Shown: positions 18,038-45,616 of the stretch, in pieces
Numbering within the stretch: position 1 is the stretch's first letter
How the letters are laid out: each line of letters begins with the position of its first letter
Assembly (NCBI GenBank): GCA_001799565.1
Contig: MGTS01000042.1
Span: 1,016 to 65,015 of the forward strand
DNA: 64,000 nt
DNA from: Elusimicrobia bacterium GWA2_51_34
GTDB lineage: Bacteria > Elusimicrobiota > Elusimicrobia > Elusimicrobiales > UBA9959
Direction of reading: 5' to 3'
Made by a program: the position numbers and the translations under genes
The notes under the pieces: generated by a model
What the model saw: the letters and a program-made list of their open reading frames with translations, nothing else
Databases searched by the model: none
What the model was told of the DNA's origin: nothing

Positions 18038-18443
18038 AATTCCTCCAAACATATGAATGATTGCTTCCATAACATAGTATACGCCGTAAAAACTATTCGG
18101 CAAGGGCCAAAGGACTTGGAGTTAATATAGGCCTTTTGACCCATACTCAAAGAACAGGATAGAGGGTAGAGGCTTAAGAAAACTCCTTCTAAAAAACCTC
18201 CCGCAAAACAACCCGGCGGGTCCGCCAAAGTTGTAGTGCGCAAAGAATGTTTATGCGCCATGATGATGCCGAGGAATCTTGCCGAATCAAGGCGGGAAAT
18301 TCGGCCCGCGACTATAATTTTGTATCATTTACCGCTGTAATCTTTTTTAAAATCCACGCAATCAAGCGCCGGCCGCGGACAGCGCCAGAGGCCGCAGGCG
18401 CACCAGAGAAAGGGGCCCGCGACAGATCAGAGCCACAGCCGTG

Positions 18444-23211: not shown

Positions 23212-24824
23212 TGGAACTGAAAACAACCTTTTTCCAAAAAGCTTTTCTTATCCTCCTTGGGATTTTCCTTTCGCTTTTTCTTATTGAAACCGGATTACGT
23301 CTGGGCGGTTTTACGCTTCTGGCTGTCCAGGAGCGCAGGAACCGGGTCTCCATTAAAAAAGTCGGCTCTTACCGCATACTTTGCCTTGGTGAATCTACCA
23401 CGCATGGACAATATCCGCCTTTTCTGGAAGCCGACCTTAACCGGAGCGGCACAGGGATACAATTCACCGTGATAGATAAGGGAAGGGCGGGAATAAACAC
23501 CGATGCGATATTAACCCGGGTGGAGTCTTACCTTGATAAATATCATCCCGACATGGTAGTGGCCATGATGGGTATAAATGACCCCGGAGCGGTGCACCTG
23601 CCGGCTGATACACCCTCCGCGTCTAAACCGGCATTGTTTATAAAGTCCTTTAAAACATACAAATTGGCAAGGCTGCTATTGCATATGGCCTTCAAAACCA
23701 ACAGGTGGTCCCTGCCTCCCGAAGACATGCAGGCGCAGCTTACCACGCTACCCGCCATTCCCGCTGCAGGACCGGATACAGAAGACACGGAACCCGTTAA
23801 AAAATTAAAAAAAGAGCTGAAACTTAACCCAGGCAACGATGAGGCATACCTTGAACTTGGGTGGGTATATCGGGAACAAGAGAAATTTCATCAGGCAGAA
23901 ATGTATATTAAAAAAGCTCTCAAAATAAATCCCGGGCATGTCAGGGGATACGTTGATCTTGGATGGCTATACCTGAAGCAGCGGAAATATCAGCAGGCAG
24001 AAATACATATTCAAAAAGCGCTGCGAATAAATCCGCTGAATGAAGGAGTATACCTTCAATTTGGGGAGCTATACAGGGACCAGGGTAAATTCCAGCAGGC
24101 AGAGATGTATATTAAAAAAGCGCTGCGAATAAATCCGGGCAATGATGCGGCATACGGTGAACTTGGGGCAACCTACCTGGAACAAAGGAAATTTCACCAG
24201 GCAGAAATGTATGTTAAAAAATCGCTGAAAATAAATCCAGATAATGATCGGATATGCGTTCAACTTGGGATGATATACTGGGAACAGGGGAAATTTCAGC
24301 AGGCATACCAGGAATTTAAAAAAGCGTTGCAAATAAATCCAGGGAATGCAGGGGCATACTATGTAATCGATAGGATATGCCTGGAGCGAGAACAATCTTG
24401 CCAGGCAAAAGAGCCTTACTACCGGAAGGCTACCCGGCGGTATATACACGGATACAATCTGTTCACAGCAAACAACTACCATGCCCTCAAAACCATTTTA
24501 GATAAAAGAAAGATACGACTGGTTTGTGTGCAATATCCCATGCGCGATATCACTCCGTTGAAAAACATATTCAAGGGGAAGGCGGAAGATATTGTTTTTG
24601 TGGACAATGAGAGGGTTTTCAGGGAAGCGGTTAAGAAAGAAGGCTATGGAGCATATTTCCGGGACATGTTCGGCGGCAATTTCGGCCACTGTACAGACAC
24701 CGGCAACAAATTGCTGGGTGAAAATATCGCCGGGGTTATATTAAGAGAAGTCTTCCATAAGAAGTTCCTGCTCTATACCCCTGCGGCAAAATATCCGGAA
24801 AAAACCACACCGCGTCCGTCTTAG
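23208..24824 (+). CDS. Membrane-anchored SGNH/GDSL-like hydrolase with an internal TPR array (paralog 4 of 4)
   Basis: Same architecture, 538 aa, about 6 TPR-like units. It has a distinct C-terminal tail (LLYTPAAKYPEKTTPRPS) in place of LLRNKAGxGGVR. Confidence 0.6.
   Translation: MMELKTTFFQKAFLILLGIFLSLFLIETGLRLGGFTLLAVQERRNRVSIKKVGSYRILCLGESTTHGQYPPFLEADLNRSGTGIQFTVIDKGRAGINTDAILTRVESYLDKYHPDMVVAMMGINDPGAVHLPADTPSASKPALFIKSFKTYKLARLLLHMAFKTNRWSLPPEDMQAQLTTLPAIPAAGPDTEDTEPVKKLKKELKLNPGNDEAYLELGWVYREQEKFHQAEMYIKKALKINPGHVRGYVDLGWLYLKQRKYQQAEIHIQKALRINPLNEGVYLQFGELYRDQGKFQQAEMYIKKALRINPGNDAAYGELGATYLEQRKFHQAEMYVKKSLKINPDNDRICVQLGMIYWEQGKFQQAYQEFKKALQINPGNAGAYYVIDRICLEREQSCQAKEPYYRKATRRYIHGYNLFTANNYHALKTILDKRKIRLVCVQYPMRDITPLKNIFKGKAEDIVFVDNERVFREAVKKEGYGAYFRDMFGGNFGHCTDTGNKLLGENIAGVILREVFHKKFLLYTPAAKYPEKTTPRPS
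23796..24446 (+). repeat. In-frame 102-bp TPR-like tandem units, paralog 4 (~6 units)
   Basis: Periodic NPGN...QQAE...KKAL pattern. Boundaries are approximate. Confidence 0.65.
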
Positions 24825-32359: not shown

Positions 32360-33376
32360 CTATTTTTCAAGAATACGTACGGAGAGGGGGGGCATGTCGG
32401 ACGGAAGGCCGCGCCTCTCCTCAAAGAGCGGGCGCCAGCCTTTCATTACCTCGGTGTCCAGCGCAACGGGAAAGGAGGCGGAGTTCACAAGCACAAGATA
32501 CCGCCGCCCGCCTTTTTTGAAGGCCGCGGCGGAGAGCGCCGGGTCAAGCCCGGCCGGCGGATCGGTTTGCCGGCCTTCCATAAACACCGGGCCCATGCGC
32601 CCCAGCTCAGCCGCCATGCGCCCATAAATATCCCAGCGCTCCGGCCGGTCCGCCAGCGGCACGCCATCCTGCGAGGCGTACTTGAAATAGAAAATTCCCC
32701 GCGCGCCGCGCGCGAGCGCAAGGTAAGTCATAAAGCGCACCTGGGCAAAAGTGGGAAAACCGCCCACTTTCTTCGCCCTGCGCTGCGGGAATTCCATCCA
32801 GTCAAAAGCCTGCAGCACCGCCCATACCGGCTTGCCCGGGTTTTTCGCATCCAGCATCTTGGCGCCTTCCCGCAGCAGAGCAATCTGCTGGCCCACCGAA
32901 CCCAAATCCAGATGCGGCACCGGGTACCAGTCCGCCATCAGCACGTCAGCCGCGCCGCCGTAGGTGAAAGCCGCTATGCCGTCGCCCATAACAAAAGCGG
33001 TTCTCTGCGCGGGCGACCACTCTTTTACCCTCCGGTCCAGCTTTAGAAGTTCTTCCAGCGGCATCCTGCGCACCTCTGGTTCGTCATAAAGATACCAGGC
33101 CAGCATCGGCCAGTCTTTAGCTTCCTTATCGTAGGCTGAACCTATCACTTTGTCGGGATACGCCGCCATTTTCAGGTTCAGCTTTCCGGCCTCCGCAGCC
33201 AGCGCCGCCAGCAGCTCCGGGGCCTGCTCGTAGGTCTGGAAGCAGTTGAACCCCGCTCGCTTTAAAACCTGCAGCTCAGCCGGCTTTCCTATGCCATACA
33301 TGCACACCGGCAGGTTATTGCCCGCCCAAAGCAAAGGCGCCGCCAGGAACGAGAAGAGGAAAAGTGTAATTTTCAT
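32360..33376 (-). CDS. Exported hypothetical protein (possibly a TIM-barrel glycosidase-like fold)
   Basis: 338 aa with signal peptide MKITLFLFSFLAAPLLWA. The alternating beta/alpha pattern with WYLYDEPE and WAVLQAF is suggestive only. The coding call is strong but the function is weak. Confidence 0.4.
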   Translation of the reverse strand: MKITLFLFSFLAAPLLWAGNNLPVCMYGIGKPAELQVLKRAGFNCFQTYEQAPELLAALAAEAGKLNLKMAAYPDKVIGSAYDKEAKDWPMLAWYLYDEPEVRRMPLEELLKLDRRVKEWSPAQRTAFVMGDGIAAFTYGGAADVLMADWYPVPHLDLGSVGQQIALLREGAKMLDAKNPGKPVWAVLQAFDWMEFPQRRAKKVGGFPTFAQVRFMTYLALARGARGIFYFKYASQDGVPLADRPERWDIYGRMAAELGRMGPVFMEGRQTDPPAGLDPALSAAAFKKGGRRYLVLVNSASFPVALDTEVMKGWRPLFEERRGLPSDMPPLSVRILEK

Positions 33377-33476: not shown

Positions 33477-34172
33477 ATGAAATTAGTCCAGATAGCCGTA
33501 TTAGCCGCCGCGGTGTCCTTAGGTGGAAGCGTTATAGCCCAGGCAGCGGCCACACCCGCTAAAGGCTTAAAGATCACCAAAATAACCGGCACCGTAAATA
33601 TTATGAAGGACGGCGTGATAGTAATGACCCTTAAACCGGGCGACTCCATACCGGAAATTAAAGACAATCAAATGACTTTTGCCGTGGTGGAAGGCTCCAT
33701 GGAATTGCAGGCTGGCGGCAAGGCCATAACCGCCGGCGCCGGCGCTAACTTCAGCGTTACCTCCAATAGAAGTGAAGTTGAAATATCTGTAACGGCAGGC
33801 GCCCCTGTGGCCATAAAGAGCGAATCCGGCCACAATGTGGTGCTTACCCCCAACACCACGGTTTCAATGGTAAACACAAGGGGAAAAGTTGAGATATCAG
33901 TGGAAAAAGGAAACGCCGTGGTAAGCAACGCTTCCGGCGGTGAAACGCAGAGCGTTAAAGCCGGCGAAACTGCCTCCATCCCCGCCATGCCCCCGGCCCC
34001 TATAGCAGCAGCCGCTCCAGCCCCCGCTAAAGAAGAACCCGAAGCCGAAATCCCCGCTGAAACCCCGGCCGACGCCGCTGTTACGGTTCCCGTAACCGAG
34101 CCCCCGCCCACCACCGTCATCCAAACACAGACCGTGGAAGAAGCCACAGAAGTCAGCGGTTCCAATCCCTAA
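33477..34172 (+). CDS. Exported FecR-like beta-sandwich protein with a Pro/Ala/Glu linker and conserved C-terminal tail (copy 1)
   Basis: It has a signal peptide and RBS ggagg. The repetitive beta-strand region resembles the FecR fold. The tail EPPPTTVIQTQTVEEATEVSGSNP (34098-34169) is shared with the 37984 gene. Confidence 0.5.
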   Translation: MKLVQIAVLAAAVSLGGSVIAQAAATPAKGLKITKITGTVNIMKDGVIVMTLKPGDSIPEIKDNQMTFAVVEGSMELQAGGKAITAGAGANFSVTSNRSEVEISVTAGAPVAIKSESGHNVVLTPNTTVSMVNTRGKVEISVEKGNAVVSNASGGETQSVKAGETASIPAMPPAPIAAAAPAPAKEEPEAEIPAETPADAAVTVPVTEPPPTTVIQTQTVEEATEVSGSNP

Positions 34173-34199
34173 ACGAAACTTTTTAAAGGAGAATAAACA

Positions 34200-35363
34200 A
34201 TGAAAAAACTTTTAATAGCCTTTTTACTGCTCACCACCGCTAACGCGGGGGCCATGCAGAATATCAAGCTTGGAACCCTTGAAATTAACCCGCAGGTCTC
34301 AGTACAGCAGAGCTACGACAGCAATATCTACCTGACCAGGACCAAACCCTTGTCAGCCAATATCAACCGCACCGGGCTGGGCGTAAACCTGCTGAACAAA
34401 ATAGGTTCCCGCCTTGATCTGAAGGGCGCCTATACAGCGGAATTCCTGTCCTACTCCCGCTCCACCAATATCAACAACGCCACGCACCACCTGGCCAGCC
34501 TGGGAGTTGAAGCCCGCCTCCCAAAAAGCACAACCTTCATACTGGACGACAAATACATGCAGACAACCGACCAGGCCACCTCCGAGCTGACCGCGCGCGC
34601 GCTGCGCGTGCAGAACACAGCCGGAGCCGGCCTTGAAGCCCCGCTCCGCGGCAAATTTGGCTTCAATCTGGCCGCGCAGCATACTTACCACAATTATCTG
34701 GCCGCGGTTAATAACCTGCTGGACCGCCAGGAAATGCTGTCGGGCGCCGATCTCACTTTCAAGGTGCAGCCAAAAACCAAGCTGGTCCTTGGCTTCCGCT
34801 ACGGCACCATGTCCTACAAACTGGCCTCCGCCGATAACGGAGACGCCTTCTACAATAACTGGGACTTGGGTCTTACCGGCAACATCGCCCCGAAGCTGGT
34901 GGGCACCATAAAAGCCGGCGTGCAGTACAGACGCTACGAAAAAAGCCTTAACCAGGCCGCCGATAAAATAAATACCGGCGGCTACAGCGCGCAACTGCTC
35001 TGGAAGCCCGCTGAACTTACCGAAGTGATATTATACGGCAAGCGCGGCAACGTTGAAACCTCATACGGCGACAACCGCTTCTACACCTCCAATACAGGCG
35101 ACATCACGCTGTCGCGGCAGGTGCATAAATTAAAAGCCGGCCTCGGTTTCAACTATGAAGCTATCGCCTATCCGGAAATAACCGCTCTTACCGGCAAGAA
35201 ACGCCTGGACACTAACACTAATATGCGCGCGACCGCCGAATACGATATGCGGAAATGGCTTAAAGCCGGCGTAGGCTATATGTACAAGAACCGCACCACT
35301 AACGAGAAGGACTTTAAGTACCACGACAACATCGTCAGCGTAGAATTAAAAGGCATGTTTTAA
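34200..35363 (+). CDS. Outer-membrane beta-barrel protein (polysaccharide-locus associated)
   Basis: Signal peptide MKKLLIAFLLLTTANAGA, an early YDSNIYL motif, many amphipathic strands, C-terminal VELKGMF. Confidence 0.6.
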   Translation: MKKLLIAFLLLTTANAGAMQNIKLGTLEINPQVSVQQSYDSNIYLTRTKPLSANINRTGLGVNLLNKIGSRLDLKGAYTAEFLSYSRSTNINNATHHLASLGVEARLPKSTTFILDDKYMQTTDQATSELTARALRVQNTAGAGLEAPLRGKFGFNLAAQHTYHNYLAAVNNLLDRQEMLSGADLTFKVQPKTKLVLGFRYGTMSYKLASADNGDAFYNNWDLGLTGNIAPKLVGTIKAGVQYRRYEKSLNQAADKINTGGYSAQLLWKPAELTEVILYGKRGNVETSYGDNRFYTSNTGDITLSRQVHKLKAGLGFNYEAIAYPEITALTGKKRLDTNTNMRATAEYDMRKWLKAGVGYMYKNRTTNEKDFKYHDNIVSVELKGMF

Positions 35364-35382
35364 GCAGCCGGCTGTTTAAAAG

Positions 35383-35417
35383 AAAAAGGCCGTCCGAAAT
35401 AAACGGACGGCCTTTTT
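35383..35417. terminator. Bidirectional rho-independent terminator
   Basis: aaaaaggccgtccg-aaataaa-cggacggccttttt lies between the OM barrel (+) and the LMW-PTP (-). Confidence 0.8.
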
Positions 35418-35477
35418 CTTTCCACCTTGCGGTTTTATTCCCTCTCAGCTCTTATCTCCAATTCCAAGTTTTAAGCT

Positions 35478-35927
35478 CTAATCTCCCGGCTGTCCCGCCG
35501 CCTGGCCGCCCCGCTGTCCAGCAATAAATTTCATTATCTCTTCTTTAATTCGGTTAAGCACCTCTTCGTACACTTTATCACCCTTTCCCATCGGGTCCAA
35601 CACCTCCCCGCAGGCAAACAACCGGGTTTTGCGCGCGCTATGGGGGAACTTGTCCGCCAGTATAGCGGCATGGACGCTCTCCATAACAATTATCAGGTCG
35701 GCCCAGTTTATGTCCTCTTCCGCCACCTGCACGGACTTGTGCGCGGTGTCGGCCGCCCCTACGCGCTTCAGGAAATTTTCCACCTGCGGGGACATGCCGC
35801 AATATGGCTGGACGGCCGTGCCGCGCGAGCGGGCCTTAAAACCGGCGCCCGCGCCGTAAAGCGTCAGCAGTTTCTCAGCCGCGGGGCTGCGGCACATATT
35901 GCCGGTGCATACAAAAAGAACTTTCAT
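35478..35927 (-). CDS. Low-molecular-weight protein-tyrosine phosphatase (Wzb-like)
   Basis: N-terminal VLFVCTGNMCRSPAAE (CX5R(S/T) P-loop). 149 aa. Confidence 0.85.
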   Translation of the reverse strand: MKVLFVCTGNMCRSPAAEKLLTLYGAGAGFKARSRGTAVQPYCGMSPQVENFLKRVGAADTAHKSVQVAEEDINWADLIIVMESVHAAILADKFPHSARKTRLFACGEVLDPMGKGDKVYEEVLNRIKEEIMKFIAGQRGGQAAGQPGD

Positions 35928-35972
35928 GTTAAAATTCTACCATTTCACAGTTAGGTGATAGAACGCTAGTAT

Positions 35973-36042
35973 GCTGGTATGCGAGTAGGCTAGGATGCTG
36001 GTATGCATGCGTACTCGCCTACTAGCCTACTCGCATACCAGC
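35973..36042. promoter_or_regulatory. Nested 21-bp perfect inverted repeat in a divergent promoter region
   Basis: gctggtatgcgagtaggctag (35973-35993) and ctagcctactcgcataccagc (36022-36042) are exact reverse complements. Partial inner copies (atgctggtatgc / gtactcgcctac) lie between them. The function is unknown. Confidence 0.45.
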
Positions 36043-36085
36043 TTCCTAGCTTTCCAGCTTTTCAAATAAGGTAAAATTCATTTTA

Positions 36086-37816
36086 ATGGAAATACTCCTG
36101 CTGGGGTCTATTATCTTCGCGCCGCTCGCTTTCGCGGCCGTGGAACCCTGGGCTTTCGGCCCGCTGTACGCGGTATTTTTCGGCATGTCCGCGCGGCTTT
36201 ACTCAACAGGCCGGGCCAATAATCCAAACCCGCTTTATAAAAACCTCATCCCCGCCGTGCTTGCCGTGGCAGCCATAGGCCTTTTGCAGACCATAACGGA
36301 AAACCCCGTAAACGCGCCCTCGGCCCTTATTTTTACCGCCTGGCGGCAGGCCACACTTAACGCCGTGGTTACCTGGCTGTTCTACGCGGCAGTGCTTTAC
36401 TGCGTGCCGCAGATAATCACCACTCCACAGCGCCTCAAGCGCCTGTTATGGACCATATTCGCCATGGGCGTTATCATAGCGCTTATAGGAATGCTTCAAA
36501 AAAGCGGGGAAAACAGTATTGTTTACGGCTTGCGCAAAGTAAGGGGCGATTCATTCGGCCCTTTTGTGAACCGCGATCATGGCGCCAATTTTATGGCCAT
36601 GGCGGCCCTGGCCGGGATGGGATTGTTCTTTTCCGGGTTCCGGGCGATGTTCGCGCAACAGAGCCATACGCGTTTTTTTGACCTGCTGGCGGTGCAATCT
36701 TTGAAGCTGGTCATGATAGTGGCCGTGATTTACGGCATCTACCGCACCGGCTCGCGCGGCGGACTGCATTTTTTCGTGCTGGCCGCGGCTGCCGCCGGGT
36801 TCGTCTCCGCCGGCTTCGTAAAAACAAGGAAACTTAAAGTGGCCGCTTACGCTGGGCTTTTACTCCTTTTGGCCGGTTATGGTGTTTTTGTCTCGCGCAA
36901 TGAAAAACTTATGGGCCTCAACGGCGGCGCTTTTGACCGCTCTATCACTATGCGGTTCTCAATGTACGCAAGCGGCTGGCGGATGTTGAAGGATTTCCCC
37001 GTATTCGGCGTGGGCCTTGGCGCCGTGGAGCACGCCTTCCCTCACTACACGCTCCCCGGTTTTCCGGTAGGCAGGCTTGTGCGCCACGTGCACAGCGACT
37101 GGCTGGAGCTTTTCCTGCAGACGGGCCTTGCGGGCGGGCTTATCTACCTGGCCGGCCTGCTGGCTGCGCTGTACTTCTCTTTCAAAACCTGGACCGGCGC
37201 CCGGTCATTCACGATAAAGGCGCTATGCGGCGGGGCGCTGGGCGCGGCAGCGGCAGCTTCGGCACATAACCTGGTGGAGTTCGGCTCGCAAATGCCGGCC
37301 AACACACTTACCTTTTACGCCCTGCTGGGCGCGCTGGTTTCCATACCCGCCTTACAAGGTCTTCCCAGCCGCAACACCGGCGAAGAAGAGCTGCCTGAAC
37401 CCGCCGCCCCCGCGCCGCGCCTGCGCGCCGCCGCGGTCTTTGCGCTGGCCGCGCTGCTGTCCGCCTGGGTTATACCGCAATTCATGGCCTGGCGCTATGA
37501 CCAGTTGGCAAAAACCGCACCTTTCGCCCATAAAATAGAATTCCGCGCAGCCTCGCTTAAATGGTCCCCCAACCCGCAGGCCGCCTTCCGCCTGGGCGGG
37601 GAGTATTATAATCAGGGGCTGCAAAATAAAACCGCCCCCTGCGCGCTGTTCCGGGATTCCCGGCAGGCCATATCGCCGTTTCTGCGCCGCGCCCCAGTAA
37701 ATTACGATCTCAACATCCTTGATGGGAACCTGCGCTTGCAGCTGGCGCACTGCTATAACCCCCGCAAAATAAAGGCCGGTTCCGGCGCCCCGCCAGCGCG
37801 CGCCAGCCGCCCCTAA
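36086..37816 (+). CDS. O-antigen ligase/polymerase family (Wzy_C) polytopic membrane protein with a soluble C-terminal extension
   Basis: More than 10 TM segments. It has the characteristic loop HVHSDWLELFLQTGLAGGLIYL and a ~150-aa non-membrane tail. Confidence 0.75.
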   Translation: MEILLLGSIIFAPLAFAAVEPWAFGPLYAVFFGMSARLYSTGRANNPNPLYKNLIPAVLAVAAIGLLQTITENPVNAPSALIFTAWRQATLNAVVTWLFYAAVLYCVPQIITTPQRLKRLLWTIFAMGVIIALIGMLQKSGENSIVYGLRKVRGDSFGPFVNRDHGANFMAMAALAGMGLFFSGFRAMFAQQSHTRFFDLLAVQSLKLVMIVAVIYGIYRTGSRGGLHFFVLAAAAAGFVSAGFVKTRKLKVAAYAGLLLLLAGYGVFVSRNEKLMGLNGGAFDRSITMRFSMYASGWRMLKDFPVFGVGLGAVEHAFPHYTLPGFPVGRLVRHVHSDWLELFLQTGLAGGLIYLAGLLAALYFSFKTWTGARSFTIKALCGGALGAAAAASAHNLVEFGSQMPANTLTFYALLGALVSIPALQGLPSRNTGEEELPEPAAPAPRLRAAAVFALAALLSAWVIPQFMAWRYDQLAKTAPFAHKIEFRAASLKWSPNPQAAFRLGGEYYNQGLQNKTAPCALFRDSRQAISPFLRRAPVNYDLNILDGNLRLQLAHCYNPRKIKAGSGAPPARASRP

Positions 37817-37983
37817 CCTCTACCCCTCACTTGGAATCGCGCCGTGAAAACTGCGGGGGGCAATAAGCGCGTCAGTAAATATTTGCCATCTCCCCGCTTT
37901 ACATTATAAAATAGGCGCTTAGCCGTCTGGCTGTCCAGCTGCCTGGCTGCCCAGCAGTGGATGTATCTTTACAAGGGGGAACA

Positions 37984-38730
37984 ATGAAATACTTATTCAG
38001 CTTATGCCTGGCGGTGACAATTATATCACCGGCCGCCGCGCAGAACGAGGCCTTCACCGGCAAGATCTTTACCGCCGAGGGCACAGTGAAATACCTTAAA
38101 GACGGCTCAGCCACATGGCTTCCGGTAAAGGTCCCGCAGCTTCTAGAGATTGGGGACAAAGTAAAAACCGGCCCCGGCTCCAAAGCGGAGCTTTACATTA
38201 AGTACGGCTCAAAAATACGCCTTGGCGCGAATTCCATTTTTGTGCTGAATAAAGTAGGCCCCAGGGAAAACTCGGTGGAAATGCTGTTGGGCAGGATGCA
38301 GGCCTGGATACGCAAAACCGCGGACCGCAAGTTTACAGTGCGCACGCCGTCCGCCGTTTGCGCCGTGCGCGGCACGGTTTTTGAGGTGGAGGTGGGCGAG
38401 TCCGGCCAGACCGTGTGGAACCTGTTCTCCGGAGTAATACGGGTTTCCGATTCACACAACAATAGCGTAACCCTGGCGCCCAACCAGCAATTAGCCGTTA
38501 CAAAAGAAAAAGGCGTGGAACAGCCCGCCCAGATACCCGCCCAGGTAAAGCCGCCGGAAGAACCGAAACAGCTCATCAAAGAAGAGATCTCTGAAGTAAA
38601 GGTGGAACAGATTGCGGCTGCAAAAGCTGAAGAGCAGGCTAAAGCCGCCGCCCAGGAACCTCCGCCCACCACCGTAATAGAAACCAAAGTGGTGGAGGAA
38701 AGCATGGAAGTAAGCGGCTCCACTCCCTGA
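37984..38730 (+). CDS. Exported FecR domain protein with a charged linker and conserved C-terminal tail (copy 2)
   Basis: ORF track 37957-38730, with ATG at 37984 (MKYLFSLCLAVTIISPAAA). It has the FecR-type core ...RTPSAVCAVRGTVFEVEV.... The tail is EPPPTTVIETKVVEESMEVSGSTP (38656-38727). Confidence 0.65.
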   Translation: MKYLFSLCLAVTIISPAAAQNEAFTGKIFTAEGTVKYLKDGSATWLPVKVPQLLEIGDKVKTGPGSKAELYIKYGSKIRLGANSIFVLNKVGPRENSVEMLLGRMQAWIRKTADRKFTVRTPSAVCAVRGTVFEVEVGESGQTVWNLFSGVIRVSDSHNNSVTLAPNQQLAVTKEKGVEQPAQIPAQVKPPEEPKQLIKEEISEVKVEQIAAAKAEEQAKAAAQEPPPTTVIETKVVEESMEVSGSTP

Positions 38731-38906: not shown

Positions 38907-39560
38907 ATGAAAGTTGGGGGAATAATTGCCTTTGCTATAGCTTTTTGCGCCTGCGCCGCGCACCATACCCAGCCAGCAGCACCCGTAACCCCCGGCGAGC
39001 AGACCGCTATAGAGCAGCGCCTGCTGCAAACCGCCCTGGATCTGAAGAACAAAAGCCAAGTCAACTATAAAATACAGCCCGGAGATTTGCTTGAAATAAC
39101 CGTTTTCCAGGAAGCCGATATGTCCCGCACCGCCCGCATAAGCGGCAACGGTACTATAACTTTCCCGCTGGCCGGCAACCTTAAACTGGCGGAACTTTCG
39201 GTACCAGAAGCCGAAAGCTTCCTGGCCGAGAAACTTTCCGAATTCCTGATAAAACCGCAGGTGACCGTGCTTATAAAAGAGTACGGCAACAAGCAGATAT
39301 ACGTTCTGGGCGAGGTTAAAAAACCCGGTTCCATAACCCTACCGCCAGAGCGCCGCCTGACCGTGCTTGAGGCCATAACCCTTGCCGGCGGCTTTACCGA
39401 CCTGGCCGCCCCGGACCGCACCAAGGTGCTCAGGAACGCCAACGGCCAGAACCAGAAAATACCGGTGGAAATTTCACGCATTACCAAGCAGGGCGATAAA
39501 AGCGCCGACATCTTCCTGGAACCCAACGACACAGTTTTCGTTCCCCAGAGTTTCTTTTGA
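38907..39560 (+). CDS. wza: Polysaccharide export outer-membrane lipoprotein (Wza-like, Poly_export + SLBB)
   Basis: ORF track 38886-39560, with ATG at 38907. It has lipobox-like AFCAC. YKIQPGDLLEITVF...ISGNGTITFPLAGNLKLAELS...IYVLGEVKKPGS is typical of Wza/GfcE N-terminal domains. Confidence 0.8.
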   Translation: MKVGGIIAFAIAFCACAAHHTQPAAPVTPGEQTAIEQRLLQTALDLKNKSQVNYKIQPGDLLEITVFQEADMSRTARISGNGTITFPLAGNLKLAELSVPEAESFLAEKLSEFLIKPQVTVLIKEYGNKQIYVLGEVKKPGSITLPPERRLTVLEAITLAGGFTDLAAPDRTKVLRNANGQNQKIPVEISRITKQGDKSADIFLEPNDTVFVPQSFF

Positions 39561-39590: not shown

Positions 39591-39839
39591 ATGCCACTAA
39601 ACAGCGACACAAACATCAAAGCGCGGGAGTTCCTTATAGCACGTTTACGCACCACCCCGCCCGGCATAAAGCTGCTCCAAGCCGCTGAAATGACCAATTC
39701 TTGCGCTGCCTTCTGCATGGCAGGCATACGGTCCCGCCGCCCCGGCATATCTGAAGAAGATGTACGGCTGGAATTCGCCCGCCTGCACCTAGGCGGCACG
39801 TTGACCGCAAAAGTCTACGGCGGAAGAAAACTTTTATGA
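39591..39839 (+). CDS. Small hypothetical protein, partner of the downstream nucleotidyltransferase
   Basis: 82-84 aa (TTG at 39585 or ATG at 39591). Its stop overlaps the next start (ATGA at 39836-39839). I recognise no family. Confidence 0.45.
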   Translation: MPLNSDTNIKAREFLIARLRTTPPGIKLLQAAEMTNSCAAFCMAGIRSRRPGISEEDVRLEFARLHLGGTLTAKVYGGRKLL

Positions 39840-40399
39840 CCGTTAATCCCACAGAAGTTCTGGACCTGGTGGTCAAAGTCCTTAACACGCTTGACATCCC
39901 GCACATGATCTGCGGTTCTCTGGCAAGTTCCGTGCACGGTCTACCCCGCGCCACCATGGACGCCGACCTGGTAGCTGAAATTAAACCCAAACAGGCCGCG
40001 GCGCTGGTTCAAGCCCTTGAAAAAGAATGTTATATTGATGAAGACTCAGTAATGGAAGCGATTTCCAACCGGTCTTCTTTCAACATAATCCACTTGGCGT
40101 CTTCGTTTAAAGTGGATGTTTTTATATTGCGGGATAACCCATATTCAATTAATGAATTTTCACGCAGAACGCCGCAGACTGTTGCCGGCGTTCCGGAAAC
40201 GTCTTTCTTTGTGGCCACTCCTGAGGATGTAATATTAACCAAATTGCGCTGGTATCACCAGGGAGGGGAAACCTCCGAAAACCAATGGAGCGATGTTGCA
40301 GGAATAATTAAAGTGCAGGGTGAACGGCTGGACAGAAAATATCTGAAACACTGGGCATCGGAGCTTGGACTAGCCAGCCTCCTGGAAAAAGCTCTTTGA
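39836..40399 (+). CDS. Nucleotidyltransferase-fold (MNT/AbiEii-like) protein
   Basis: The motif CGSLASSVHGLPRATMDADLV matches the minimal NTase signature hG[GS]x9-13Dh[DE]h. 187 aa. Confidence 0.55.
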   Translation: MTVNPTEVLDLVVKVLNTLDIPHMICGSLASSVHGLPRATMDADLVAEIKPKQAAALVQALEKECYIDEDSVMEAISNRSSFNIIHLASSFKVDVFILRDNPYSINEFSRRTPQTVAGVPETSFFVATPEDVILTKLRWYHQGGETSENQWSDVAGIIKVQGERLDRKYLKHWASELGLASLLEKAL

Positions 40400-42302: not shown

Positions 42303-42470
42303 TCATCCTGCGGCCAAGTCGCCTATTCGGTCCACTTTTGTATTGACTTACATACCTGGACATAAAAAAGCTCGTACATAATAAGAAAGTAGCAAAGAAG
42401 GCGGCAGGCAAAAACAATTCAAACCGTGATGTCAATTATCTAGGTGTTTATACAACATCTCCCGCACTCT

Positions 42471-44270
42471 ATGACTGAACACAAAAAAACTCCCCTGGGG
42501 CTCCCTACACTGCTGGCCCATCTTTTCAAACATATCAGTCTTCGTCGGCGCTATCAATTCCTTTTTATGCTCGGCTTGATACTGGCCAGTTCCGCTGCCG
42601 AGGTTGTCAGCCTAGGCGCTGTTCTGCCGTTCATCGGTATTCTTACCCAGCCGGAAAAGGTTTTCAATTACCCGATACTGGCCAGCTTTATTAAAATGCT
42701 GGGGATCACCTCTCCGTCGGGCTTGATTCTACCCCTCACAGCGGCTTTCGCCATGTCAGCCATAGTAGCCGCAGGATTACGGCTATTATTGCTGTGGGTC
42801 AGCATCCGCTTAGCAAACGCTGCCGGTGCAGATCTAAGCATCGAAGTCTACCGCCGCACGCTTTACCAACCCTATAGTGTGCATGTTGCCCGCAACAGCA
42901 GTGAAATTATCAGTGGGATTACCCAAAAAGTCGGAACTGCAACAGCCGTGTTGATATCTTTAGTTATTGTAGTTAATTCAGTTGTGCTGTTTATCGCCAT
43001 CCTTTTAACATTGCTCGCAATTGACCCTTTAGTGGCCACCTCGGCAATCCTAGTATTTGGAACAGGATATGGGATTATTGCCGGGCTAATGCGTCGCCGC
43101 TTGGTACGGAATAGCCAATGTATTGCGCGGCAACAGCCACGGGCTGTTCAAGCTCTACAAGAAGGGTTAGGTGCTATTCGTGACGTACTCCTGGATAGCG
43201 CACAGGCAGTTTATTGTGATGTGTATAATAAAGCTATCCGGCAATGGTTTCGAGCGAGCAGCGGGAATACTTATATACATCAATTCCCACGCTACGTTAT
43301 GGAAGCAATGGGCATGGTTATGATCGCAGGTTTAGCGTATACTTTAGGCCGGCGCCCGGGCGGGATGCAGGCTGCTATGCCTATAATGGGGGTACTGGCG
43401 CTTGGTGCGCAGCGCATACTGCCTCTGATGCAGCAATTGTATTCCAATTGGACGGTTGTGGTTGGAAGCTATTCCTCGTTGAATGATGTTCTTGATCTGC
43501 TTGCTCAGCCTCTGCCTAATGATGCTGATCTGCCGGTGCCAGCGCCACTTGTGTTTCAAGATAGCATCAGTTTTAAAAATGTCAGCTTCCGGTATGGCAA
43601 CTCTGGTCCATTAGTGTTGGAGGAGCTTAATCTGGTGATCCCAAAAGGAGCCAGAATTGGGTTTGTTGGCAGTACCGGAAGCGGTAAGAGCACCGCGCTG
43701 GATTTACTTATGTCCTTGCTTGAGCCTTCGCAGGGACAGATATTAGTGGACAACCGGCCTATAACAAGTGACCTTCGTAGTGCCTGGCAGCGCGCTATTG
43801 CTCATGTGCCGCAAAGCATATTCCTTTCTGACGCCACCATCGCCGAAAACATAGCTTTTGGTGTGCCGCCTGCGGAGATAGATAGTGTTCGCGTTCGGCA
43901 AGCCGCCACCCAAGCGCATATAGCAGAATTTATAGAAAGCAGGCCCGAAGGATATAGCACCTTAGTAGGTGAACGCGGTATGCGGCTCAGTGGTGGACAG
44001 CGTCAGCGAGTGGGCATAGCCCGGGCACTATATAAGCAGGCAACCGTGCTGGTTTTTGATGAAGCTACCAGTGCACTGGACAATGTCACTGAAAAAGAGG
44101 TGATGAATGCTATTGAAAGCCTAAATAAAAACCTGACCATATTTATGGTAGCTCATCGCTTTACTACACTCCGGAATTGCGACACAATTGTGCAGTTAGA
44201 CCGTGGACATATTCTAGCTACTGGGTCTTACGAACATTTTAAAAAGATATCTTCACTTTTCACGGCCTAA
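42471..44270 (+). CDS. ABC exporter, fused permease/ATPase (MsbA/PglK-type)
   Basis: Six N-terminal TM helices. It has Walker A GSTGSGKST, signature LSGGQRQR and Walker B VLVFDEATSALD. GTG at 42444 or ATG at 42471. Confidence 0.85.
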   Translation: MTEHKKTPLGLPTLLAHLFKHISLRRRYQFLFMLGLILASSAAEVVSLGAVLPFIGILTQPEKVFNYPILASFIKMLGITSPSGLILPLTAAFAMSAIVAAGLRLLLLWVSIRLANAAGADLSIEVYRRTLYQPYSVHVARNSSEIISGITQKVGTATAVLISLVIVVNSVVLFIAILLTLLAIDPLVATSAILVFGTGYGIIAGLMRRRLVRNSQCIARQQPRAVQALQEGLGAIRDVLLDSAQAVYCDVYNKAIRQWFRASSGNTYIHQFPRYVMEAMGMVMIAGLAYTLGRRPGGMQAAMPIMGVLALGAQRILPLMQQLYSNWTVVVGSYSSLNDVLDLLAQPLPNDADLPVPAPLVFQDSISFKNVSFRYGNSGPLVLEELNLVIPKGARIGFVGSTGSGKSTALDLLMSLLEPSQGQILVDNRPITSDLRSAWQRAIAHVPQSIFLSDATIAENIAFGVPPAEIDSVRVRQAATQAHIAEFIESRPEGYSTLVGERGMRLSGGQRQRVGIARALYKQATVLVFDEATSALDNVTEKEVMNAIESLNKNLTIFMVAHRFTTLRNCDTIVQLDRGHILATGSYEHFKKISSLFTA

Positions 44271-44338
44271 TATTTGATGTCTCTGTAAATACTGCATAAC
44301 TGCCTGCCGGTGTTTAGTGCAAGAGTAGGTTGCAAAAG

Positions 44339-45616
44339 ATGGAACAGATTTATTCAGAAGCTATTCAATTAAACACGGTAATTAGTTTAGGTGTGGCAAT
44401 ATTGTGTTTGTTATTGGTTTTTAAAGGACGGCCAGAAATATCTACAGGTATTTATCTGGCAGGAATGTCATGGTGTGTTATTTTAAAAATAGGAAATATA
44501 GCTCAGACATGGATATTTTTAGCAACCATGTTCGCCGCGGCTTTTGTATTTTATCTTAAAGAAGCCCGGTTTCGCTTGCCTAAAAGAGACCGTTGGATTA
44601 TTCCATGGCTTTTACTTTGGTGGATTTGGACACTTACCCTGCTCTTCTTCTCTATACCGGACAACACGACGCTTATTCGAGCATTTATTCTTAGCACCGT
44701 CCTGCCAATTCCGGTAGTCTTGCTATATTCGCAAAGTTTAGAGCGTGTTGGATCCTTTTCACTCGCGTATGTGCTTACCACTGTATTGGGAGGATTTGTG
44801 GTTTTGCAATACATAGCTGCTAACTATTCAAATCTAATTATAAATCCTTTGACAGGGGCTTATGGAATGGGCCGTTTGCCCATACGAAATTATCATACAT
44901 TCGCCTATGTGTATGGGGTATCAATTATTATGCTGATAGCTTTGTTCCAACAATCACGCCATTTAATCACGCGCATCTTTTATGCTTGTGCAATGGTTTA
45001 TTGTTTATATTTCCTATACTTTAGTAATTCAAGGCAAACGCTTTTAGCGACCTTTATTGCCTGTATACTATTCCTTTATTGGCTGTTTCGTTGCAACTCT
45101 GCAACAAGTAATAGGTTAAGGCACCTTACTAAAGGCAAGGTATGGTTATTGTCTGCAATTGGCGGCTTTACGCTGTGGTTTGTGTATGCAAAGAATCCAG
45201 TTATTGTGTTGCGGAACTTTGCGACAGCAACGGAAGCTGCATCTAGTATTGGTGAAGAAAGTCGTTTTGTGAGATGGAGCACGACGGTGCAAACGATTTT
45301 AGATTCAAATTTCCTTGGCACAGCATATGAAGCGGGGAATGTGCATAATTTCTTTTTGTCAGTGTTAGCCAACGAAGGTATAATAGGCTTTCTTTTAATG
45401 TCTGTGTTTTTTGTGTTCTCATTTCGGCAAATGAAAAATGTCTGGTCAGTAAAGGAGATTAGCGAGGTCACCATCTGGCGAATGGCATTTTGTTGCATTT
45501 TTCTTTCTACTTTTATTCATGCCCAATTTTCGGGCGATAATCTCTGTGCCCCGGAACTTTTCTGGTCAGTTGTGTTTTTATGGTACTCAAAGCAAGATAC
45601 GGGCCAATTGGATTAA
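44339..45616 (+). CDS. O-antigen polymerase/ligase family membrane protein (Wzy-like)
   Basis: About 10 TM segments and AT-rich codon usage. It has a late loop with GNVHNFFLSVLANEGIIGFLLM (Wzy_C-like). TTG at 44330 or ATG at 44339. Confidence 0.65.
   Translation: MEQIYSEAIQLNTVISLGVAILCLLLVFKGRPEISTGIYLAGMSWCVILKIGNIAQTWIFLATMFAAAFVFYLKEARFRLPKRDRWIIPWLLLWWIWTLTLLFFSIPDNTTLIRAFILSTVLPIPVVLLYSQSLERVGSFSLAYVLTTVLGGFVVLQYIAANYSNLIINPLTGAYGMGRLPIRNYHTFAYVYGVSIIMLIALFQQSRHLITRIFYACAMVYCLYFLYFSNSRQTLLATFIACILFLYWLFRCNSATSNRLRHLTKGKVWLLSAIGGFTLWFVYAKNPVIVLRNFATATEAASSIGEESRFVRWSTTVQTILDSNFLGTAYEAGNVHNFFLSVLANEGIIGFLLMSVFFVFSFRQMKNVWSVKEISEVTIWRMAFCCIFLSTFIHAQFSGDNLCAPELFWSVVFLWYSKQDTGQLD

What the first reader, a model, noticed from the sequence alone, without database searches (positions are those of the whole stretch)
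33477..38730. Two FecR-like exported proteins share a conserved 24-aa C-terminal tail, and each precedes an outer-membrane component
The proteins at 33477-34172 and 37984-38730 both have a signal peptide, a FecR-type beta domain and a Pro/Ala/Glu/Lys-rich linker. Both end in EPPPTTVI(Q/E)T(Q/K)(T/V)VEE(A/S)(T/M)EVSGS(N/T)P-stop (34098-34169 and 38656-38727). The tails differ at many synonymous positions (gagcccccgcccaccaccgtcatc vs gaacctccgcccaccaccgtaata). This argues for selection on the peptide rather than a recent DNA copy. One gene is followed by an OM beta-barrel (34200) and the other by Wza (38907). The tail could be a docking or sorting peptide linking a periplasmic FecR-like module to OM export machinery. 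I do not know of a described function for such a motif.
Basis: partly seen in the sequence, partly recalled or inferred. Interest (0 to 1): 0.55.

Follow-up and report, generated by a model that had tools for sequence, protein, structure and literature searches.

The report
Shared tail on two polysaccharide-export proteins
Two distantly related periplasmic proteins in the polysaccharide-export gene cluster of uncultivated Elusimicrobia carry the same short tail, which is kept matched between them across the lineage and found on no other protein; it is most likely a sugar-attachment site or a docking peptide, and which one is untested.

Summary
Proteins A (33477-34172) and B (37984-38730) end in the same 24 residues, 18/24 identical. 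Eight of those 18 identical codons differ synonymously.

- The window is from Elusimicrobia bacterium GWC2_51_8.
- Both proteins define families restricted to Elusimicrobiota. 75/78 A clusters and 61/62 B clusters keep a two-box tail: xTVIPTQ, a variable spacer, then S-x-S-x-P. There are four variants, one with a C-x8-C loop.
- The tails of A and B in one genome match each other better than tails of orthologues in other genomes (0.73 vs 0.45 identity; 1 of 720 permutations).
- Two searches for other tail-bearing proteins found only A or B.
- A always precedes the beta-barrel porin. B precedes the short Wza-like gene in only 2 species.
- The "Wza" is a Class-3 OPX lipoprotein ending in SFF, so the barrel is the outer-membrane channel.
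- The conserved core also holds a WaaL/PglL-type Wzy_C protein.

Best guess (0.38): the tail is a dedicated O-glycan acceptor for that enzyme. Main rival (0.30): a docking peptide for the export machine. A general sorting signal is unlikely. Function is untested.

The parts
33477..34172 (+). Protein A (231 aa). It has a signal peptide (about residues 1-23), a divergent FecR-like all-beta domain (31-169), a Pro/Ala/Glu-rich disordered linker (170-207) and the tail (208-231).
   Evidence: It is 100% identical to P0115 from Elusimicrobia bacterium GWC2_51_8. AlphaFold2 pLDDT is above 94 for residues 31-169 and 51-72 for the linker and tail.
34098..34169 (+). Tail of A: EPPPTTVIQTQTVEEATEVSGSNP. 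Box 1 is TTVIQTQ and box 2 is S-G-S-N-P.
34200..35363 (+). Outer-membrane beta-barrel (BBP2_2, EpsL/TIGR03016-like), the likely porin partner of the Class-3 OPX protein. It lies 27 nt downstream of A.
   Evidence: Pfam PF10082 E=2.1e-16. Weak matches to NCBIfam TIGR03016/TIGR03014. A-then-barrel synteny holds in all 27 species loci.
35478..35927 (-). Low-molecular-weight phosphotyrosine phosphatase (Wzb-like).
   Evidence: Pfam PF01451 E=6.4e-22. Its position is conserved.
36086..37816 (+). Conserved-core Wzy_C-family (WaaL/PglL/Wzy superfamily) membrane protein, 576 aa. It has about 13 predicted TM helices, then a roughly 110-aa probably periplasmic C-terminal domain with two conserved Cys, and its own ...S-R-P end. 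It is the candidate enzyme or partner for the tails.
   Evidence: Pfam PF04932 at 70 bits. It is present in every locus at 56-73% identity. R224, R290 and H336 are invariant; C519 and C556 are at least 90% conserved. TM count. No PglL_A match.
37984..38730 (+). Protein B (248 aa). It has a signal peptide, a FecR-fold beta domain (26-182), a predicted helix (199-224) and the tail (225-248).
38656..38727 (+). Tail of B: EPPPTTVIETKVVEESMEVSGSTP.
38907..39560 (+). Class-3 OPX lipoprotein (Poly_export + one SLBB, no Wza_C helix), ending in PQSFF.
   Evidence: Pfam. The C-terminal PQSFF is invariant in 17/17 species and a lipobox is present. An SFF porin-docking motif was shown experimentally for M. 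xanthus WzaB (PMC12819527).
40533..42302 (+). Wzc-like polysaccharide co-polymerase and tyrosine autokinase.
   Evidence: Pfam Wzz, GNVR and P-loop domains; NCBIfam TIGR01007 at 154 bits.
32360..33376 (-). Conserved exported protein of unknown family (338 aa), transcribed divergently from A in every locus.
   Evidence: Synteny. No Pfam, NCBIfam or PDB sequence match.
42444..45616 (+). Start of the strain-specific glycan region: a PglK/MsbA-like ABC transporter (42444-44270) and a second, weaker Wzy_C-like protein of 428 aa (44330-45616). The latter is the more likely repeat-unit polymerase.
   Evidence: Neither has a homologue in any other fetched locus.

Best explanation
A and B are paralogous, Sec-exported periplasmic proteins with a FecR-type beta domain. 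They are core accessory components of an Elusimicrobiota Wzx/Wzy-type polysaccharide cluster. That cluster exports through a Class-3 OPX lipoprotein plus a BBP2_2 beta-barrel porin.

Each protein carries a two-box peptide at the end of a flexible 40-70-residue spacer: xTVIPTQ, then 4-16 residues, then S-x-S-x-P. The peptide is under strong purifying selection. It is kept matched between the two paralogues in each genome by occasional gene conversion plus selection. This implies that one shared partner reads both tails.

The mechanism I think most likely is that the tail is a dedicated O-glycosylation or ligation acceptor. One of the invariant serines would receive the undecaprenyl-pyrophosphate-linked glycan made by the cluster. 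The transfer would happen in the periplasm and be catalysed by the conserved-core WaaL/PglL-type Wzy_C protein at 36086-37816.

Shown:
- the motif and its conservation;
- its restriction to two families;
- the concerted evolution of the two tails;
- the synteny;
- the folds.

Inferred:
- the periplasmic location of A and B;
- the ligase-like rather than polymerase role of the 576-aa enzyme;
- the modification itself.
For: 1. The only invariant tail residues are Ser, Ser and Pro. Thr10 is conserved in at least 90% of sequences. S-x-S-x-P is present in 75/78 A clusters and 61/62 B clusters.

2. The motif lies in a disordered, acidic, Pro/Ala-rich C-terminal extension. This is the context reported for PglL targets:
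- they have a Pro next to the acceptor Ser;
- their genes are often adjacent to the enzyme gene, in the same orientation (PMC3643930);
- Acinetobacter PglL prefers disordered Ala/Pro regions near D/E (PMC12645811).

3. Known dedicated O-OTases use a C-terminal Ser/Thr (TfpO, TfpM) or a Ser between two Cys (PglS glycotag C...S...C), according to Table 1 of PMC12645811. The tail variants mirror both. Class I, III and IV tails are near-terminal. Class II encloses the motif in a constant C-x8-C loop.

4. A free carboxyl end is not required. Eleven B clusters carry 8-19 extra residues after the motif. This argues against a carboxylate-clamp type of docking.

5. The 576-aa Wzy_C protein is in every locus at 56-73% identity, with invariant R224, R290 and H336. 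The second Wzy_C-like protein and the rest of the glycan region have no homologue in any other locus. The conserved enzyme therefore probably recognises something conserved, an acceptor, rather than a strain-specific repeat unit.

6. B sits directly after this enzyme gene here and in GWA2_61_42. Elsewhere it sits directly after the PglF-like gene of a PglC/D/E/F-like sugar set. A is two genes upstream of the enzyme everywhere.

7. The two tails co-vary within genomes, which fits one reader for both (0.73 vs 0.45 identity, 1 of 720 permutations).

8. The tail is limited to two families. This fits a dedicated enzyme-acceptor pair and not a general signal.
Against: - No experiment or co-folding supports the transfer.
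- The enzyme lacks the PglL_A signature. It matches TIGR03097 (putative O-glycosylation ligase) in only 2 of 20 orthologues and below the cut-off. It also weakly matches a repeat-unit polymerase model. It could therefore be a Wzy polymerase or a WaaL acting on lipid A-core.
- Profile searches against PDB sequences found nothing.
- Box 1 (TVIPTQ, with hydrophobic V7 and V13 conserved) looks like a strand-forming docking element and is not explained by a simple acceptor serine.
- The enzyme's own periplasmic C-terminus also ends in S-x-P. This fits a shared docking site at least as well.
- Distances of the locus proteins did not single out the Wzy_C protein as tracking tail class.
- Glycosylation does not explain why a FecR-fold protein is translationally linked to the porin gene.
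Confidence: 0.38

Rival explanations
1. Docking peptide. The tail is a tethered ligand at the end of a periplasm-spanning spacer. It binds, by strand or loop insertion, to one shared site on the export machine (the BBP2_2 porin rim, the OPX ring, the Wzc periplasmic domain or the Wzy_C C-terminal domain). This would recruit or position the FecR-fold modules.
For: - The architecture is globular domain + long spacer + conserved terminal peptide.
- Box 1 has conserved hydrophobic positions V7, I8 and V13.
- A is coupled to the porin gene in 27/27 loci.
- In the same kind of machine, a C-terminal Ser-Phe-Phe of the Class-3 OPX protein WzaB docks onto its porin (PMC12819527). The OPX here ends in invariant SFF.
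- The Wzy_C protein also ends in S-x-P, so three periplasmic proteins share that end.
- The two tails co-vary, implying one receptor.
- FecR-fold domains are periplasmic protein-binding modules, as in PupR 6ovk.
Against: - The invariant residues are small and polar (Ser, Ser, Pro).
- The spacing between the two boxes varies from about 4 to 16 residues among variants, which is awkward for a single rigid interface.
- Extensions of 8-19 residues after the motif are tolerated in B.
- No protein of the locus stood out as tracking tail class.
- No co-folding could be run.
Confidence: 0.3
2. Another tail-directed post-translational event. Examples are O-mannosylation by a GT-C (PMT_2) enzyme, phosphorylation, or recognition by a periplasmic protease as a regulatory switch for export.
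For: - The tail is rich in Thr, Ser and Pro (PPPTT..., S-x-S-x-P).
- A GT2+PMT_2 gene lies 4-6 genes downstream of B in three genomes.
- A zinc carboxypeptidase gene lies at 14735-16060 in the window.
Against: - No PMT_2 gene was seen among the ORFs of this window that were scanned, nor next to A in any locus.
- The carboxypeptidase is not part of the conserved locus.
- Nothing ties a kinase or a protease to the tail.
Confidence: 0.12
3. Sorting or secretion signal. The tail would take A and B across or into the outer membrane, as a functional analogue of PEP-CTERM, the T9SS CTD or a T1SS signal.
For: - The tail sits at or near the C-terminus of exported proteins.
- The barrel, OPX, Wzc and a few Wzy_C orthologues have their nearest NCBIfam matches in PEP-CTERM/exosortase-associated families, all below the cut-offs.
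- An ABC transporter is encoded nearby.
Against: - The tail is confined to two paralogous families in 1.84 billion representative proteins and in metagenome contigs. Sorting signals mark many unrelated cargo proteins.
- There is no hydrophobic helix or Arg cluster, no TIGR02595 match and no exosortase in any locus.
- The ABC transporter is strain-specific.
Confidence: 0.07
4. No function of its own. The similarity would be maintained merely by gene conversion between paralogues.
For: A likely conversion tract was found. L049 (A) and L050 (B), from one metagenome, share 33/34 residues and 94/102 nt, with sharp borders on both sides.
Against: - Conversion alone does not explain 20/20 identical residues with 6 synonymous differences (STC_50), or 17/20 with 9 (GWF2_62_30), or 18/24 with 8 in the window.
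- It also does not explain retention of S-x-S-x-P in about 97% of clusters of both families, while the adjoining linkers are unalignable.
Confidence: 0.03

Closest known systems
Dedicated O-oligosaccharyltransferase and acceptor pairs: TfpO/PilO-pilin, TfpM-pilin and PglS-ComP. Also PglL acting on flexible C-terminal extensions such as that of AniA.
   Same: - The enzyme is a Wzy_C-family membrane protein encoded beside its few acceptor genes.
- The acceptor Ser/Thr lies at or near the C-terminus, or inside a Cys-bounded loop.
- The acceptor region is disordered, Pro/Ala/acid-rich, with a Pro next to the Ser.
- Genes for a Und-PP-linked glycan with a PglC/D/E/F-like sugar set are in the cluster.
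   Different: - The acceptors are not pilins but FecR-fold periplasmic proteins.
- The last residue is Pro, not Ser or Thr.
- A second conserved box (TVIPTQ) lies 4-16 residues upstream.
- The enzyme lacks the PglL_A motif and sits inside an OPX/Wzc export operon.
- No glycosylation has been shown.
Class-3 OPX/beta-barrel porin translocon of Myxococcus xanthus (WzaB-WzpB-WzcB), with its C-terminal Ser-Phe-Phe docking motif
   Same: - The OPX is a short Poly_export+SLBB lipoprotein ending in SFF.
- It is paired genomically with an OM beta-barrel, a Wzc-type co-polymerase/kinase and a phosphatase.
- The principle of a C-terminal peptide acting as connector applies.
   Different: - No FecR-like accessory proteins or S-x-S-x-P tails are described for those systems.
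- The barrel here is a 387-aa BBP2_2/EpsL-like protein. Its equivalence to WzpB was not tested.
FecR/PupR-type anti-sigma regulators (periplasmic cell-surface-signalling domain)
   Same: The beta-solenoid-like FecR fold matches: B aligns to 4m0n and 6ovk_R at rmsd 2.1-2.4 A over about 131 columns. The domain is periplasmic and acts next to an OM barrel.
   Different: - There is no cytoplasmic anti-sigma domain and no TM anchor; A and B have cleavable signal peptides instead.
- There is no neighbouring ECF sigma factor or TonB-dependent transducer.
- The C-terminal subdomain of the solved structures is replaced by a linker plus the tail.
PEP-CTERM/exosortase (XrtA, EpsH) exopolysaccharide-associated protein sorting
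   Same: - A C-terminal tag sits on exported proteins encoded in an EPS locus.
- The locus barrel, OPX, chain-length/kinase and O-antigen-ligase-like genes find their nearest NCBIfam relatives in this system: TIGR03016, TIGR03027, TIGR03018/03007 and TIGR03097.
   Different: - All those matches are below the family cut-offs.
- The tail has no TM helix and no Arg cluster.
- There is no exosortase gene in any locus.
- The tag is limited to two paralogues rather than many cargo proteins.

Membership tests
FecR domain (Pfam PF04773) | A match to the FecR profile above the curated cut-off (24 bits). | tested here: met
   Met for B only: 61 bits, E=1.5e-16, with the fold confirmed by Foldseek against 4m0n at E=1e-7. 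A scores 15.2 bits, below the cut-off. A is linked to B only by hhalign (98.8%) and by weak fold matches.
FecR-type anti-sigma factor / cell-surface signalling | An N-terminal cytoplasmic anti-sigma domain plus a TM helix, and a partner ECF sigma factor and TonB-dependent transducer nearby. | tested here: not met
   A and B are 231 and 248 aa with N-terminal signal peptides. No sigma-70_r2/r4 or TonB-dependent receptor genes are in the conserved locus.
Cupin (PF07883), as annotated for A by some sources | A cupin barrel with the conserved metal-binding His/Glu motifs. | tested here: inconclusive
   The Pfam Cupin_2 score is 29.4 bits against a cut-off of 27.2, over residues 49-97 only. By eye, that stretch has no His. 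The best high-probability fold matches are FecR-type, not cupins.
Class-3 OPX + porin translocon | Poly_export plus SLBB without a Wza_C helix; a lipoprotein; a C-terminal Phe-Phe; an adjacent OM beta-barrel; a Wzc partner. | tested here: met
   Pfam Poly_export, SLBB and no Wza_C in a 217-224-aa protein. PQSFF end in 17/17 species, with a lipobox judged by eye. A BBP2_2 barrel and Wzc are in the same locus. Physical interaction was not tested.
WaaL/PglL/Wzy superfamily (Pfam Wzy_C PF04932) | A Wzy_C domain with the conserved periplasmic-loop Arg, Arg and His. | tested here: met
   70 bits against a cut-off of 31.7, and all 20 orthologues match. R224, R290 and H336 are invariant. Their equivalence to E. 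coli WaaL R215/R288/H338 is inferred from position and PMC3643930, not from a structural alignment.
PglL-type general O-oligosaccharyltransferase | PglL_A / PglL_B motifs flanking Wzy_C, and demonstrated transfer to protein Ser/Thr. | tested here: not met
   No PglL_A (or other) Pfam match at E<=1 in any of the 20 orthologues. Activity is not testable here. PilO also lacks these motifs (PMC3643930), so this does not exclude O-OTase activity.
TfpO/TfpM C-terminal sequon | The acceptor is the C-terminal Ser or Thr of a pilin-like protein. | tested here: not met
   The last residue is Pro, or the motif is followed by further residues: 3-4 in 33 A clusters and 1-19 in 31 B clusters. The proteins are not pilins.
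PEP-CTERM sorting domain (TIGR02595) | A PEP motif, a hydrophobic TM helix, a basic cluster at the C-terminus, and an exosortase in the genome. | tested here: not met
   No NCBIfam match for A and none of this kind for B. The tail is acidic and polar. No exosortase is present in the window or in the fetched loci. Whole genomes were not searched.

The most novel reading that the evidence does not exclude
The cluster makes a protein-anchored polysaccharide. The conserved ligase-like Wzy_C enzyme would attach the polymer, not just one repeat unit, to the tail serine of A and B. The polymer and the 40-70-residue spacer would thread through the OPX-porin channel. The FecR-fold domain, too large to pass, would stay in the periplasm bound at the porin as a stopper. 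That would tether a capsule to the cell without a lipid anchor.
Probability: 0.08. Interest if true: 0.85.

Novelty: new variant of a known kind. Interest (0 to 1): 0.5.

Why it matters
- Class-3 OPX/porin systems are the most widespread route for polysaccharide export in diderm bacteria, and their periplasmic accessory factors are poorly known.
- This work defines two previously unannotated core accessory proteins of such a system in an uncultivated phylum.
- It also defines a short, sharply bounded peptide that both proteins must share.
- If the tail is an acceptor site, it would be a new dedicated O-glycosylation system with a compact, transferable tag of about 20 residues. That could interest glycoengineers.
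- If the tail is a docking peptide, it identifies a new connector in the trans-envelope export machine.
- Either way the prediction is directly testable by heterologous expression.

Tried and rejected
1. A tail-only profile search with the search for homologous proteins failed. A2 was too short. The 42-residue version A3 returned nothing at E<=10, although the same profile finds family members locally. That search was wasted.

2. I looked for a locus protein whose divergence tracks tail class. The between-class to within-class distance ratios were 1.03-1.19 for all seven proteins, so the test did not discriminate. It is confounded by phylogeny.

3. Sequence and profile searches of PDB found no useful match for A, for the Wzy_C protein or for the 338-aa neighbour. 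B gave only two weak matches (E=0.11 and 0.85).

4. Literature searches for FecR-like accessory proteins in OPX systems or in Elusimicrobia found nothing relevant.

5. The antisense ORFs 33668-34165 and 38193-38723 overlap the tails and share N-termini only because they mirror the tails. I treat them as mechanical artefacts.

6. The tail's box 1 resembles a TonB box (TTVIVTQ vs the DTxVVTA type, from memory), and ExbBD-TonB genes flank the locus in GWA2_61_42. That adjacency is absent in the window and in other genomes, so I dropped the idea.

7. By eye the Wzy_C C-terminal domain looks TPR-like, but Pfam gives no TPR match. I make no claim on this.


Full report
**1. The observation**

- A (33477-34172, 231 aa) ends EPPPTTVIQTQTVEEATEVSGSNP.
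- B (37984-38730, 248 aa) ends EPPPTTVIETKVVEESMEVSGSTP.

Eighteen of the 24 residues are identical. Eight of the 18 identical codons differ synonymously, and 53 of 72 nucleotides are identical. Outside the tail the two proteins share only about 23% identity. A six-frame scan finds the motif nowhere else in the 64-kb window.

**2. Source and families**

A is 100% identical to a protein of Elusimicrobia bacterium GWC2_51_8.

A search with B returned 62 orthologue clusters, and a search with A returned 78. Every named source is Elusimicrobiota. Nearly all of these clusters keep the tail: S-x-S-x-P lies in the last 45 residues of 75/78 A clusters and 61/62 B clusters.

In an alignment of 60 distinct tails, S20, S22 and P24 are invariant. 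P3, V7, T10 and V13 are at least 90% conserved.

The tail has two boxes, xTVIPTQ and S-x-S-x-P, separated by a variable spacer. Four variants occur, and each is found in both families:
- I: ...TQxVxESxEVS[GASP]S[TN]P-end.
- II: ...TQEIVQAVC[DE]VS[AS]S[ST]P[DG]Cx-end, with a constant C-x8-C spacing.
- III: ...TQETEExVVxETPVVSES[TM]P-end.
- IV: a short form, ...SVIPSQELS[TP]Sxx-end.

More distant FecR-domain hits (P0064 onward) end in Lys-rich tails and lack the motif.

**3. The two proteins**

*B* matches Pfam FecR at E=1.5e-16. Its AlphaFold2 model has mean pLDDT 88. It shows a beta domain at 26-182, a helix at 199-224 and a low-confidence tail. The model superposes on a FecR-type anti-sigma periplasmic domain (4m0n: E=1e-7, rmsd 2.4 A) and on PupR (6ovk_R: E=1.2e-6).

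*A* matches FecR only weakly (E=0.03, below the cut-off) and has a marginal Cupin_2 hit. Its model has an all-beta domain at 31-169 with pLDDT above 94. Its high-probability fold matches are the same FecR-type structures, but at weak E-values. The A-family profile aligns to the B-family profile at 98.8% probability. That alignment includes the shared signal peptide and tail, so it overstates the evidence for the beta domains.

I treat A and B as old paralogues. Neither has an anti-sigma domain or a TM anchor. Both start with what look like cleavable signal peptides; this was judged by eye, with no predictor available. They are therefore probably soluble periplasmic proteins.

**4. The locus**

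Pfam and NCBIfam annotation of the window and 27 species-level loci from GTDB genomes show an invariant core:
- a 338-aa exported protein of unknown family, on the minus strand;
- A;
- a BBP2_2 beta-barrel;
- a low-molecular-weight phosphotyrosine phosphatase, on the minus strand;
- a 556-601-aa Wzy_C protein;
- a short OPX protein;
- Wzc.

A is followed by the barrel at 21-60 nt in all 27 loci.

The OPX protein has Poly_export plus one SLBB domain and no Wza_C helix. It has a lipobox and ends in PQSFF in 17/17 species. A C-terminal Ser-Phe-Phe is the experimentally defined porin-docking motif of the M. xanthus Class-3 OPX protein WzaB (PMC12819527). So the outer-membrane channel here is the barrel, with the Wza-like lipoprotein beneath it.

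B lies between the Wzy_C gene and the OPX gene only in this genome and in GWA2_61_42. In GWF2_62_30 it lies before the Wzy_C gene. In five other genomes it lies up to about 34 kb away, directly after a PglF-like gene and before rmlC/rmlA, at the far end of the glycan-synthesis region.

**5. Is the tail found elsewhere?**

- A profile of 81 tails searched against 1.84 billion representative proteins gave 8 significant hits. All are A- or B-family proteins or fragments of them. Sensitivity was limited, because short profiles reach only E of about 1e-7 at best.
- An exact degenerate DNA pattern for V-x-E-x-x-E-V-S-G-S-[TN]-P-stop in metagenome contigs gave 27 matches. Twenty are real ORF ends: 9 A and 11 B. 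Seven are chance matches in short or unterminated frames.

The tail therefore belongs to these two families and is not a general cargo tag.

**6. Concerted evolution**

In six genomes where both genes could be paired, the A and B tails belong to the same variant. They average 0.73 identity, against 0.45 for A-B pairs from different genomes and 0.43-0.47 for orthologous tails. Only 1 of 720 possible pairings reaches the observed value. One of the six pairings rests only on the two proteins sharing the same longest-contig length of 212,739 bp.

Peptide identity persists despite synonymous change:
- 20/20 residues with 6 synonymous codon differences, in genes 34 kb apart (STC_50);
- 17/20 with 9 (GWF2_62_30);
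- 18/24 with 8 (the window).

One pair from a single metagenome shares 33/34 residues and 94/102 nt, with abrupt borders on both sides. This looks like a gene-conversion tract, although co-residence of the two genes in one genome is not proven.

My reading is that occasional conversion spreads changes between the tails, and strong purifying selection keeps them. Both tails must stay the same, which implies one common reader.

**7. Which reader?**

The conserved-core Wzy_C protein:
- matches PF04932 at 70 bits;
- is 56-73% identical across species;
- has invariant R224, R290 and H336, which sit at positions like the WaaL/PglL catalytic Arg/Arg/His.

By hydropathy count it has about 13 TM helices. 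That places its last roughly 110 residues, with two conserved Cys, in the periplasm.

In contrast, the window's second Wzy_C-like protein (428 aa) and the neighbouring ABC transporter have no homologue in any other locus, as expected for a strain-specific polymerase and flippase. This makes the conserved enzyme more like a ligase with a conserved acceptor.

The tail's features resemble what is reported for bacterial O-OTase acceptors (PMC3643930; PMC12645811 Table 1):
- invariant Ser-x-Ser-x-Pro;
- an acidic, Pro/Ala-rich, disordered context;
- a near-terminal position;
- a Cys-bounded loop variant;
- tolerance of extra C-terminal residues in 11 B clusters.

I therefore rank 'dedicated O-glycan acceptor' first, at 0.38.

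The evidence against is real:
- no PglL_A motif, and only weak, mixed NCBIfam hits;
- no structural relative found by sequence;
- box 1 is left unexplained;
- the enzyme's own C-terminus also ends in S-x-P in 17/20 species.

That last point, and the SFF precedent, fit a shared docking site equally well. I rank 'docking peptide' at 0.30. A test for a locus protein whose divergence tracks tail class was uninformative.

**8. Comparison with known systems, and novelty**

The locus itself is a known kind: a Wzx/Wzy-type cluster with a Class-3 OPX/porin translocon. It is distantly related to PEP-CTERM-associated EPS loci, with all NCBIfam matches below cut-off.

The parts I found described nowhere are:
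- two FecR-fold accessory proteins as core components;
- their shared two-box tail;
- its concerted evolution.

No protein-family model covers these features, and the held literature does not mention them. I class the finding as a new variant of a known kind. It has moderate interest (0.5), because the function is inferred only, although it is easy to test.

Noticed in passing
window 37744-37816 (C-terminus of the Wzy_C protein); also L008-L033: The conserved Wzy_C-family protein itself ends in a Pro-rich stretch and ...[NS][SA]SRP-stop in 17 of 20 species. This is an S-x-P end like the A/B tails. It follows a probably periplasmic domain with two conserved Cys. The GWF2_62_30 genome, whose A/B tails lack the final Pro, also lacks this end. 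However, L019 lacks it while keeping ...SESTP on A.
   Followed up: partly
window 18441-24824: Four tandem paralogous genes (490-570 aa) each combine an N-terminal GDSL/SGNH-lipase-like region with multiple TPR repeats. They are unrelated to the finding.
   Followed up: no
window 32360-33376 (-): A 338-aa exported protein with no Pfam, NCBIfam or PDB sequence match is divergently paired with A in every locus, at 54-67% identity to the window protein. It is an uncharacterised core member of the export cluster.
   Followed up: partly
window 39836-40399: A 187-aa ORF lies between the OPX and Wzc genes and has no homologue in any other locus. Other genomes carry DUF3800, DUF1016/YhcG or toxin-antitoxin genes at comparable points, so the core operon is repeatedly interrupted by small mobile or defence-like genes.
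   Followed up: no
L001 17336-19327, L035 15596-17581, L036 13016-15198: A GT2 + PMT_2 (GT-C, ArnT/PMT-like) glycosyltransferase, fused or split, lies 4-6 genes downstream of B in three genomes. It is a possible alternative periplasmic glycosylating enzyme.
   Followed up: no
P0197 (81 aa): A short predicted protein, or fragment, carries two copies of box 1 (TTVNPTKELVE... and SIIITQEIVQAVC...) before a class II end. It may be a partial B-family gene or a duplicated tail.
   Followed up: no
L066 (ENA NODE_8295, 7.6 kb) versus L065: One contig carrying the same A protein goes from the phosphatase and a DUF3800 gene straight to Wzc, without the Wzy_C and OPX genes seen in the sister contig. This is either a natural deletion variant or a misassembly.
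   Followed up: no
P0064-P0112: Other Elusimicrobiota FecR-domain proteins of similar size lack the tail. They end in coiled-coil-like, Lys/Arg-rich C-termini (...EKLKKR...KLKKK), which suggests further paralogue families with a different C-terminal module.
   Followed up: no
window 33668-34165 (-) and 38193-38723 (-): Long antisense ORFs overlap both genes and begin with similar peptides (MEPLTS...). This is only because they are the reverse complement of the two tails, so they are mechanical ORFs.
   Followed up: yes
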